DNA of 42,729 bases, taken from the sequence record PQ589898.1. The stretch is one strand, 5' to 3'. The notes beneath the pieces are model-generated. The model did no database searches. It was not told the origin of the DNA and saw only the letters and a list, made by a program, of their open reading frames with translations. This document shows positions 33,275 to 33,693 of this stretch, in pieces (the first letter of the stretch is position 1; each line of letters starts with the position of its first letter). The DNA is from Escherichia phage Alux-21. Made by a program: the position numbers and the translations under genes.

Positions 33275-33559
33275 ATGGCGAAATTACCTGATTACCTGAA
33301 ATTCAACAACGAAACCGGCCACTGTGACATCACCCTGTCACGACCGCTGAAAATCGCGGGCGTTGACGTTTCCGTGCTGCGTATGCGCGAACCCACCGTG
33401 GCTGACCAGGAGATTGCAAGCGACATGGGCGGCAGCGATGCTGCGCGCGAAATCCAGACGTTTGCCAACCTTTGTGAACAGGCACCTGATGACATCCGCC
33501 GCCTGCCGCTGAAAGACTATAAGCGCCTACAGGCTGCCTATATCAGTTTTTTAGACTAA
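33275..33559 (+). CDS. tail assembly chaperone E (P2 gpE-like)
   Basis: 94 aa upstream of tape measure; ends with in-frame slippery heptamer T_TTT_TTA. Confidence 0.75.
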   Translation: MAKLPDYLKFNNETGHCDITLSRPLKIAGVDVSVLRMREPTVADQEIASDMGGSDAAREIQTFANLCEQAPDDIRRLPLKDYKRLQAAYISFLD

Positions 33560-33693
33560 CGCGCCAGTATATCCGTTCTGGAGTTCTTGCTCTGGCTAGT
33601 CACACAGGATGGTCAGAGCGTGAAATAATGAGTTTTAGGACATCAAAATTCATTTGGTATTTGGAAGGGTTGCGAGAGGCGCAGAATAAGTAA
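33275..33693 (+). CDS. tail assembly chaperone E' (predicted -1 frameshift product E+E')
   Basis: Slippery heptamer TTTTTTA at 33547-33553 in XXXYYYZ register; -1 frame stays open 46 codons to TAA at 33691-33693. Confidence 0.5.

What the first reader, a model, noticed from the sequence alone, without database searches (positions are those of the whole stretch)
33541..33693. Programmed -1 ribosomal frameshift site producing tail chaperone E+E'
The last codons of the gpE-like gene are ATC AGT TTT TTA GAC TAA, which places the heptamer T_TTT_TTA (33547-33553) in the classic X_XXY_YYZ slippery register. The -1 frame then runs 46 codons without a stop to TAA at 33691-33693. This matches the conserved E/E' (lambda G/GT-type) arrangement, except that here E' ends before an inserted HNH gene rather than overlapping the tape measure gene.
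Basis: partly seen in the sequence, partly recalled or inferred. Interest (0 to 1): 0.4.

Follow-up and report, generated by a model that had tools for sequence, protein, structure and literature searches.

The report
Tail chaperone -1 frameshift site (E/E')
This is the usual programmed -1 ribosomal frameshift that tailed phages use to make a short and a long version of their tail-assembly chaperone, found here in an E. coli Jilinvirus-type phage; it is real but ordinary, and its one unusual feature is that the extension and a neighbouring nuclease gene appear to have arrived together as foreign DNA.

Summary
Gene E (33275-33559, 94 aa, Pfam Phage_TAC_7) ends ATC AGT TTT TTA GAC TAA. T_TTT_TTA (33547-33553) is in X_XXY_YYZ register. 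The -1 frame runs 46 codons to TAA at 33691-33693 and has no start codon of its own.

The pattern alone is not rare: 3 of 229 mechanical ORFs in this window show one like it. Comparison makes it real. In about 40 related loci, down to about 45% E identity, the -1 frame encodes a conserved peptide (RLSxxYIRxGxLALASHTGWxxxEIxxMxxSRFxWWLEGLP). Its synonymous sites are saturated and its non-synonymous change is low, while the other two frames carry stops. All loci keep NNT-TTY, two sense codons, then the stop.

The gene order is sheath-tube-E-E'-[HNH]-tape measure-U-X-D, as in P2. The homologous frameshift is already annotated in phages Mica and Mano, but not in any Jilinvirus record. No convincing downstream RNA stimulator was found. 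The extension does not match Pfam Phage_P2_GpE.

Side finding: the extension plus the HNH-type gene (33560-34299, GC 0.44 against about 0.55) is a foreign cassette. Its left border lies exactly after the E stop.

Verdict: a new member of a known kind, of low interest.

The parts
33275..33559 (+). Gene E: tail assembly (tape-measure) chaperone, 94 aa, the zero-frame product
   Evidence: ORF. Pfam PF10109 Phage_TAC_7 at E=8.3e-18, 64.6 bits against a cutoff of 25. The AF2 model has pLDDT 91.6, and its best viral match is the 'Tape measure chaperone' of Burkholderia phage Mica, TM 0.91.
33547..33553 (+). Slippery heptamer T_TTT_TTA in X_XXY_YYZ register (P site Phe92 TTT, A site Leu93 TTA)
   Evidence: The same heptamer is found in ECO1230-10 and ep3. 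It is replaced by A_AAT_TTT or G_GGT_TTT one codon upstream in other relatives.
33547..33550 (+). T_TTT tetramer (a Phe codon preceded by T). This is the only slip element kept in all 39 related loci and in Mica, Mano and Murka, always followed by two sense codons and the stop
33553..33693 (+). E' extension: 46 sense codons in the -1 frame plus TAA. It has no start of its own. The E+E' fusion is 139 aa (33275-33553 joined to 33553-33690)
   Evidence: The conserved motif GxLALASHTGW..EI..M..SRF.WW.EGLP is. In the -1 frame pS is 0.64-0.98 and pN is 0.21-0.35 with no stops, whereas the other two frames have pN above pS and carry stops.
33560..34299 (+). Foreign cassette (divergent E' allele plus HNH-type gene) that replaces the 125-131 nt E'-coding spacer of the closest relatives
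   Evidence: Nucleotide identity to ECO1230-10 is 98.8% in E and falls to 57% immediately after the E stop. Identity returns at the T start codon. GC is 0.44 against 0.54-0.57 in the neighbouring genes. The block 33200-34300 is 99-100% identical in metagenome contigs whose flanks are 93-95% identical on the left and 50-90% on the right.
33694..34311 (+). HNH-type nuclease gene, 205 aa. It starts directly after the E' stop (TAAATG) and overlaps the T start by 11 nt
   Evidence: PHROG 1035 'endonuclease VII' at E=2.5e-17, with no Pfam hit. Homologues at about 40% identity are scattered over 213 unrelated phage records, some of them annotated as HNH endonuclease. It is absent from 42 of 44 related loci.
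34301..36658 (+). Tape measure gene T, 785 aa
   Evidence: PF10145 at E=1e-37.
32708..33214 (+). Tail tube gene (FII type), immediately upstream of E
   Evidence: PF04985 at E=5e-57.
33588..33620 (+). 13-bp hairpin inside the E' coding region, 35 nt after the heptamer. It is specific to this allele, and no role could be assigned
   Evidence: 107-nt fold, z=-2.7. It is not conserved in relatives.

Best explanation
Most ribosomes translating gene E terminate at TAA 33557-33559 and make the 94-aa chaperone E. A minority slip back one base on the U-run UUUUUUA (33547-33553). In this slip tRNA-Phe re-pairs from UUU to UUU and tRNA-Leu re-pairs from UUA to UUU. These ribosomes continue in the -1 frame from AGA 33553 to TAA 33691-33693 and make a 139-aa fusion, E+E'. 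By analogy with lambda G/GT and P2 E/E+E', the shared E domain coats the tape-measure protein, and the rarer E' domain recruits the tube protein so that the tail polymerises to the correct length. Neither protein ends up in the virion. What is shown here: the sequence anatomy, the lack of an independent start, the gene context, and strong purifying selection on the -1 frame across a wide family. What is inferred: that the shift is ribosomal, its efficiency, the exact slip position, and the assembly role of each domain.
For: The anatomy is. The context sheath-tube-E-(E')-T-U-X-D, with Pfam hits, is. The -1 peptide is conserved in relatives even though DNA identity to ECO1230-10 stops at the E stop. 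Of 40 IMG/VR loci at 32-96% E identity, about 36 keep the extension motif. In 12 pairwise comparisons the -1 frame has pS 0.64-0.98 against pN 0.21-0.35 and no stops, while the 0 and +1 frames have pN above pS and up to 4 stops. The slip position is kept in all loci (NNT TTY + 2 codons + stop). Where the upstream codon cannot re-pair (AGT, CAT), a T_TTT_TTA/C heptamer is present instead. P2 has the same layout, with T_TTT_TTG, and its -1 site is annotated. The homologous genes of phages Mica and Mano are deposited as 'tape measure chaperone frameshift product', a joined CDS. The biology of G/GT and of P2 comes from Atkins et al. 2016, PMC5009743. The slipperiness of U_UU.U and U_UU.C tetramers and of U-rich heptamers in E. 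coli comes from Sharma et al. 2014, PMC4066793.
Against: There is no experimental evidence for this phage. No convincing 3' stimulatory structure was found. The 47 nt after the site fold no better than shuffles (z=+0.33). RNAalifold finds no consensus structure. A candidate stem at a 6-7 nt spacer is paired in only 59% of cells. In E. coli the U_UUA tetramer is weak, and U_UU.U_UU.A is not in the high-efficiency class H_HH.U_UU.Y. The extension does not match Pfam PF06528. The motif by itself is not statistically unusual.
Confidence: 0.88

Rival explanations
1. The same fusion is made, but the slip occurs one codon earlier, on the family-conserved tetramer T_TTT (33547-33550). Either tRNA-Phe in the A site re-pairs alone, or a P-site tRNA-Phe re-pairs while the A site is empty. 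This product would have Phe instead of Leu at residue 93 (..ISFFRL.. rather than ..ISFLRL..).
For: NNT_TTY at exactly this position is the only element present in all 39 loci and in Mica, Mano and Murka. About a third of lineages have no canonical heptamer at all, for example GAT TTT CTC, CTT TTT ACG, CGT TTC ATC and CGT TTT ACC. In E. coli U_UU.C and U_UU.U are the second and third best tetramers, and U_UUA is weak.
Against: In this window the preceding codon AGT cannot re-pair in the -1 frame. The lineages with AGT or CAT at that position are exactly those that have acquired TTT TTA/TTC, which suggests the heptamer compensates. Tetramers alone gave well under 1% without a stimulator.
Confidence: 0.25
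2. Transcriptional slippage is responsible. RNA polymerase adds one extra U in the T6 run, giving a minority of mRNAs in which E and E' are in the same frame.
For: A run of six T is present at 33547-33552. Homopolymer runs are known to cause transcript indels (Sharma 2014; Atkins 2016).
Against: Most relatives keep the same two-frame arrangement with only three or four T (GGGTTTT, AAATTTT, CGTTTC), which is too short for polymerase slippage. The family-level mechanism therefore cannot be transcriptional. Six residues is also short for efficient slippage by E. coli RNA polymerase (general knowledge).
Confidence: 0.05
3. E' is an independent small gene, translated from its own start codon.
For: Murka's record annotates a separate 'tail assembly protein E'' CDS. 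NCBI names short stand-alone 'GpE family phage tail protein' ORFs in P2-like prophages.
Against: The -1 frame has no ATG/GTG/TTG before 33628, so the best-conserved part (RL..YIR.G.LALASHTGW) would be left out. The -1 frame is closed by a stop at 33520-33522, just upstream of the slip site.
Confidence: 0.02
4. The motif and the open frame are a chance co-occurrence and have no function.
For: Comparable patterns occur in 3 of 229 mechanical ORFs in this window.
Against: The encoded peptide is conserved and shows the selection signature of coding sequence across about 40 loci.
Confidence: 0.01

Closest known systems
Bacteriophage P2 E / E+E' (Christie et al. 2002, cited in PMC5009743; NC_001895 annotation)
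   Same: Both have an E domain of Pfam PF10109 placed between the tube gene FII and the tape-measure gene T. Both have a U-run heptamer near the end of E (P2: T_TTT_TTG; here: T_TTT_TTA), a -1 extension of about 50 residues with no start of its own, and fusions of 142 and 139 aa.
   Different: The P2 slip site lies 6 codons before the E stop, and here it lies 1 codon before it. P2 E' overlaps T by 8 nt, whereas here E' ends at an HNH-type gene. P2 E' matches PF06528 (E=1e-21) and this extension does not, even at E<=10. The profile-profile similarity is weak (probability 33%, P=4.6e-4).
Phage lambda G / GT and the conserved tail-chaperone frameshift of long-tailed phages (Levin 1993 and Xu, Hendrix, Duda 2004/2013/2014, as summarised in PMC5009743)
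   Same: Two products share an N-terminus and are made by a low-level -1 shift just upstream of the tape-measure gene. The presumed division of labour is that the common domain binds the tape measure and the extension binds the tail tube subunit.
   Different: There is no detectable sequence similarity. The slippery site differs (lambda: G_GGA_AAG). This is a myovirus rather than a siphovirus tail. Function here is inferred only.
'Tape measure chaperone frameshift product' annotated in Burkholderia phage Mica (MT701586) and Achromobacter phage Mano (MT708550)
   Same: These are true homologues (about 50% identity over E and E'). They have the same extension motif (..LASHTGWS.AEI.NMR.SRFLWW.(E/D)GLP..) and the same layout of NNT TTT + 2 codons + stop. 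They are deposited as a joined CDS.
   Different: Their heptamers are A_AAT_TTT (Mica) and G_GGT_TTT (Mano), one codon upstream of the one here. They have no HNH gene: E' ends 9 nt before the tape-measure gene in Mica and overlaps its start by 20 nt in Mano.
Free-standing HNH homing endonuclease genes of phages (for the neighbouring gene only)
   Same: The gene is inserted between two conserved essential genes and has a sporadic distribution. Its GC content is low. A block of near-identity is shared between otherwise 91%-identical genomes.
   Different: No Pfam HNH hit was obtained, and neither cleavage nor homing was tested. The flanking sequence that came with it encodes a functional protein domain (E') read only after a frameshift.

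Membership tests
Tail assembly chaperone pair made by programmed -1 frameshift (lambda G/GT, P2 E/E+E' type) | The upstream ORF and a -1 overlapping ORF lie between the major tail/tube gene and the tape-measure gene | tested here: met
   Tube 32708-33214, E 33275-33559, -1 ORF to 33693, T 34301-36658. An HNH-type gene is intercalated before T.
Tail assembly chaperone pair made by programmed -1 frameshift (lambda G/GT, P2 E/E+E' type) | [quoted passage not shown] | tested here: met
   T_TTT_TTA at 33547-33553, one codon before the stop. Equivalent sites are found in relatives.
Tail assembly chaperone pair made by programmed -1 frameshift (lambda G/GT, P2 E/E+E' type) | The downstream frame has no initiation codon of its own and is conserved as protein | tested here: met
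   There is no start before 33628. The motif is conserved in about 36 of 40 loci. pN is far below pS only in the -1 frame.
Tail assembly chaperone pair made by programmed -1 frameshift (lambda G/GT, P2 E/E+E' type) | Both products are actually made, in a fixed ratio, and both are needed for tail assembly | not testable with these tools
   This needs a western blot or mass spectrometry, plus genetics.
Pfam PF10109 Phage_TAC_7 (chaperones E, 41 or 14) | The score is above the gathering threshold | tested here: met
   64.6 bits against 25, E=8.3e-18, residues 19-93. All 120 listed database homologues carry PF10109.
Pfam PF06528 Phage_P2_GpE (the E' C-terminal domain of P2) | The score is above the gathering threshold | tested here: not met
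   No hit at E<=10 for three extension sequences, while P2 E+E' scores 76.3 bits.
Pfam PF06528 Phage_P2_GpE (the E' C-terminal domain of P2) | Remote homology is detectable by profile-profile comparison | tested here: inconclusive
   hhalign gives probability 33% and P=4.6e-4. It aligns ALASHTGWsxxEIxxMxxSRFiWW with DIAVIFHWPPSELYPMSLTELxxW. Against a single P2 sequence the probability is 7.5%.
-1 PRF signals with a 3' stimulatory RNA structure | A stable stem-loop or pseudoknot lies 5-9 nt downstream of the heptamer and is conserved | tested here: inconclusive
   In the window z=+0.33. The alifold consensus is empty. The candidate helix is 59% paired against 53% when shuffled. The twelve sequences (the window and eleven relatives) have a mean z of about -1. 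There is no Rfam match.
HNH (beta-beta-alpha-metal) homing endonuclease | A recognisable HNH catalytic motif or domain | tested here: inconclusive
   There is no Pfam or PDB sequence hit. PHROG 1035 'endonuclease VII' scores E=2.5e-17. The motif HVDHMVP...NIQVIPAAMNLEKHNK is visible in the translation. Homologues in records OY978775 and MZ345003 are annotated as HNH endonuclease.
HNH (beta-beta-alpha-metal) homing endonuclease | Sporadic presence or absence at one site among close relatives | tested here: met
   It is present in the window, in 5 metagenome contigs and (as a 40%-identical version) in ep3. It is absent from the other 42 loci.

The most novel reading that the evidence does not exclude
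The -1-frame extension and the HNH-type gene travel together as one mobile cassette, and its left border is the frameshift site or E stop itself. Homing or gene conversion would then co-convert the E' domain, so the frameshift junction would act as a module boundary. This would let a phage swap the tube-recruiting half of its chaperone independently of the tape-measure-binding half. The divergent E' DNA might also protect the carrier genome from its own nuclease.
Probability: 0.35. Interest if true: 0.4.

Novelty: new member of a known kind. Interest (0 to 1): 0.2.

Why it matters
The main value is for annotation. All public Jilinvirus records examined (PT1, ECOO78, ECO1230-10, ep3, HeidiAbel_Bas97) list only E and leave a 125-131 nt 'intergenic' gap, or E plus an unexplained gap before the HNH gene. 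An essential tail-assembly protein is therefore missing from their proteomes. The family also gives a compact natural series of shift sites at one fixed position: canonical G_GGT_TTT, A_AAT_TTT and T_TTT_TTA/C, and bare N_NNT_TTY. That series could be used to measure how much a heptamer adds to a U_UUY tetramer in vivo. The cassette observation is a small example of a homing-type gene dragging a functional coding segment with it.

Tried and rejected
- **Rfam:** a scan of 33200-34400 at E<=1 found nothing.
- **Conserved 3' structure:** the RNAalifold consensus over 29 relatives was essentially empty, with 2 invariant pairs. A hand-named stem (columns 17-21 with 35-39) was only 59% paired. The strong hairpin at 33588-33620 lies 35 nt downstream and is allele-specific, so it was rejected as a classical stimulator.
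- **Pfam PF06528 for the extension:** no hit.
- **Solved structures for E+E':** the sequence profile search found nothing meaningful. The Foldseek PDB search with the E model gave no hit with E<1; the HK97 chaperone 2ob9 scored only E=1.7.
- **AF2 of the fusion:** the single-sequence model was poor (pLDDT 64, with the extension below 50), so nothing is claimed about the fold of E'.
- **Other carriers of this E' allele:** a degenerate DNA pattern search in IMG/VR gave 0 hits. The HNH protein found only 2 distant loci there.
- **Literature:** the BASEL-II preprint on Jilinvirus HeidiAbel and the Mica genome announcement do not mention the frameshift.
- **Independent initiation, chance and polymerase slippage:** all three were considered and given low weight (see the rival explanations).

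Full report
**Observation.** The sequence is as described. ORF 33275..33559 (94 aa) ends TAT ATC AGT TTT TTA GAC TAA. TTTTTTA lies at 33547-33553 in the register T_TTT_TTA. The -1 frame, open from 33523, runs 46 sense codons from AGA (33553) to TAA at 33691-33693. That frame contains no ATG/GTG/TTG until 33628, so most of it cannot be translated independently. The predicted fusion is 139 aa.

**Is it more than chance?** Not as a motif. Of 229 mechanical ORFs of at least 60 aa in the window, ten have an in-register X_XXY_YYZ heptamer in their last 15 codons, and three of these have a -1 extension of at least 40 codons. The case rests on context and comparison.

**Context.** The window is essentially a Jilinvirus (Iiscvirinae) genome. 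It is about 90-93% identical over 63-70% of its second half (20000-42729) to HeidiAbel_Bas97, ep3, ECO1230-10 and ECOO78. Around the site, Pfam identifies these genes:
- sheath (PF04984/PF17482);
- tube (PF04985);
- E (PF10109 Phage_TAC_7, E=8e-18);
- tape measure (PF10145);
- GpU, tail protein X and GpD.

This is the P2/R-pyocin tail module. An AF2 model of E built with 26 homologues is confident (pLDDT 91.6). Its best match among viral models is the 137-aa 'Tape measure chaperone' of Burkholderia phage Mica (TM 0.91). There is no significant PDB match.

**Comparative evidence.** Megablast identity to ECO1230-10 and ep3 stops exactly at the E stop codon. Even so, the -1 frame of those phages and of PT1 encodes a clearly related peptide.
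- I collected 40 IMG/VR loci encoding E homologues at 32-96% identity. About 36 of them keep an open -1 frame of 40-50 codons.
- The extension consensus is RLSxxYIRxGVLALASHTGWSxxEIxxMRxSRFIWWLEGLP. L, L, A, G, W and L are invariant.
- I compared the window with 12 relatives over 40 codons. The -1 frame has saturated synonymous differences (pS 0.64-0.98), low non-synonymous differences (pN 0.21-0.35) and no stops. The same DNA read in the other two frames has pN above pS and up to 4 stops.
- None of the 120 listed database proteins covers more than the E part. Gene callers therefore miss the extension.

**Anatomy of the shift site across the family.** Every locus has the layout NNT TTY, two sense codons, then the stop.
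- Most loci have G_GGT_TTT and some have A_AAT_TTT (PT1, ECOO78, Arya, Mica).
- Lineages whose upstream codon cannot re-pair (AGT here and in ECO1230-10 and ep3; CAT in L039) have T_TTT_TTA or T_TTT_TTC instead, one codon downstream.
- About a third have only the T_TTY tetramer (GAT TTT, CTT TTT, CGT TTC and others).

The constant element is therefore a Phe codon preceded by T. The window's heptamer looks like a compensating solution. In E. coli, U_UU.C and U_UU.U are the second and third most shift-prone tetramers, U_UUA is weak, and the efficient U-type heptamers are H_HH.U_UU.Y (Sharma et al. 2014, PMC4066793). Whether the slip here happens with Leu-tRNA in the A site (product ..ISFLRL..) or one codon earlier (..ISFFRL..) stays open. 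It can be settled by a single tryptic peptide.

**Stimulators.**
- The 47 nt after the site fold no better than shuffled sequence (z=+0.33).
- RNAalifold on 29 relatives returns no consensus.
- A stem at a 6-7 nt spacer that is visible in several relatives is paired in only 59% of cells, against 53% after shuffling.
- A strong hairpin at 33588-33620 lies 35 nt downstream and is specific to this allele.
- Rfam has nothing.

I therefore leave the stimulator question as inconclusive.

**Relation to P2.**
- The P2 record annotates E (91 aa) and E+E' (142 aa) with a -1 site at T_TTT_TTG, 6 codons before the E stop. E' overlaps T by 8 nt.
- P2 E+E' matches both PF10109 and PF06528. The extension here does not match PF06528 even at E<=10.
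- A profile of 22 extensions against a profile of 15 P2-type E' sequences gives a weak alignment (probability 33%, P=4.6e-4). It places the HTGW..EI..M..F.WW motif on FHWPPSELYPM..L.W.

So it works like P2 E/E', and the E domain belongs to the same Pfam family. Membership of the extension in the P2 E' family is not established.

**Known biology.** For lambda, G and GT are made at about 30:1. G and the G part of GT bind the tape measure, and the T domain binds the tail tube subunit. The shift is conserved in long-tailed phages and is 2-3 times more efficient in P2 (Atkins et al. 2016, PMC5009743, which cites Levin 1993, Xu 2004/2013/2014 and Christie 2002). The functional model for this phage is transferred from there and is inference.

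**The HNH remark.**
- In most relatives E' overlaps the T start by 8-14 nt. In PT1, ECOO78 and ECO1230-10 it ends 0-6 nt before it.
- Only the window and ep3 have a gene in between. The two inserted proteins are only 40% identical and have different left junctions.
- The 205-aa protein has no Pfam hit. It matches PHROG 1035 ('endonuclease VII') and shows a DH...N...N motif. It has homologues at about 40% identity in 213 unrelated phage records, some of them annotated as HNH endonuclease.

**Mosaic junction.**
- The window's E is 98.8% identical in DNA to ECO1230-10, but the extension is only 57% identical (62% as protein). The switch falls directly after the E stop (33559/33560), and similarity returns at the T start codon.
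- The extension allele is closest to that of a distant locus: L025 has 78% aa identity in the extension, while its E is only 53% identical.
- The extension and the HNH gene both have GC 0.44, against 0.54-0.57 for the neighbouring tail genes.
- The same HNH protein occurs in five metagenome contigs. In the two contigs read (L049, L050), the block 33200-34300 is 99-100% identical to the window. Their flanks are 93-95% identical on the left and 50-90% on the right.

This is the pattern expected from homing with co-conversion, but it is not proof of it.

**Novelty.** The mechanism and its role are textbook. True homologues in phages Mica and Mano are already deposited as joined 'tape measure chaperone frameshift product' CDSs, and Murka lists an E'. 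The Jilinvirus records do not annotate it, and the papers I could search do not mention it. I rate it a new member of a known kind, of low interest. The cassette observation is a modest extra.

Noticed in passing
window 33560-34299 (and L049/L050 2867-3606): The E' extension plus the HNH-type gene behave as one foreign block. GC is 0.44 against about 0.55 in the neighbouring genes. The left border is exactly at the E stop and the right border at the T start codon. The wider block 33200-34300 is 99-100% identical in metagenome contigs whose flanks are only 50-95% identical.
   Followed up: partly
L003 (phage ep3) 3489-4240: ep3 carries a different HNH-type gene (40% aa identity) at the same E'/T junction. 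It sits about 80 nt after an E' allele of the local type. The site therefore seems to have been invaded at least twice, or the two cassettes are old and diverged.
   Followed up: partly
window 40782-40858 (-) and 33553-33555: The phage encodes a tRNA-Arg(UCU). The first codon read after the -1 shift is AGA, a codon absent from the sheath, tube, E, U, X and D genes (0 of 63 Arg codons in those six genes). The supply of this tRNA could in principle influence the yield of the -1 product if the slip occurs with an empty A site.
   Followed up: no
window 33588-33620: A 13-bp hairpin lies inside the E' coding sequence (the 107-nt fold has z=-2.7). It is present only in this E' allele, and no role could be assigned.
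   Followed up: partly
window 30395-31133: About 740 nt holding nearly all of ORF 30450..31154 (234 aa, Gly/His-rich, tail-fibre-like) are absent from the otherwise collinear contigs L049/L050. This ORF also has an in-register T_TTA_AAT heptamer at 31130 with a 53-codon -1 extension, which is probably a coincidence.
   Followed up: no
window 34500-35221 (tape measure gene): The N-terminal third of the tape-measure gene (as far as the alignment reaches) drops to 50-85% identity against L049, while the neighbouring genes are above 90%. This is another mosaic segment.
   Followed up: no
L002, L003, L044 (RefSeq/GenBank records of ECO1230-10, ep3, HeidiAbel): The tail tube gene (PF04985, E=5e-57 for the window's copy) is labelled 'head closure' in these records. 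In ECO1230-10 and HeidiAbel_Bas97 the 131-nt E' coding stretch is left unannotated, and in ep3 it lies within a larger unannotated gap (876 nt) that also holds the HNH-type gene.
   Followed up: yes
window 33530-33534 and the same column in relatives: A CAGG/AAGG (Shine-Dalgarno-like AGG) lies about 13 nt upstream of the slip site in most but not all relatives. It coincides with the conserved Gln86 codon, so selection for an SD-type stimulator cannot be separated from protein constraint.
   Followed up: no
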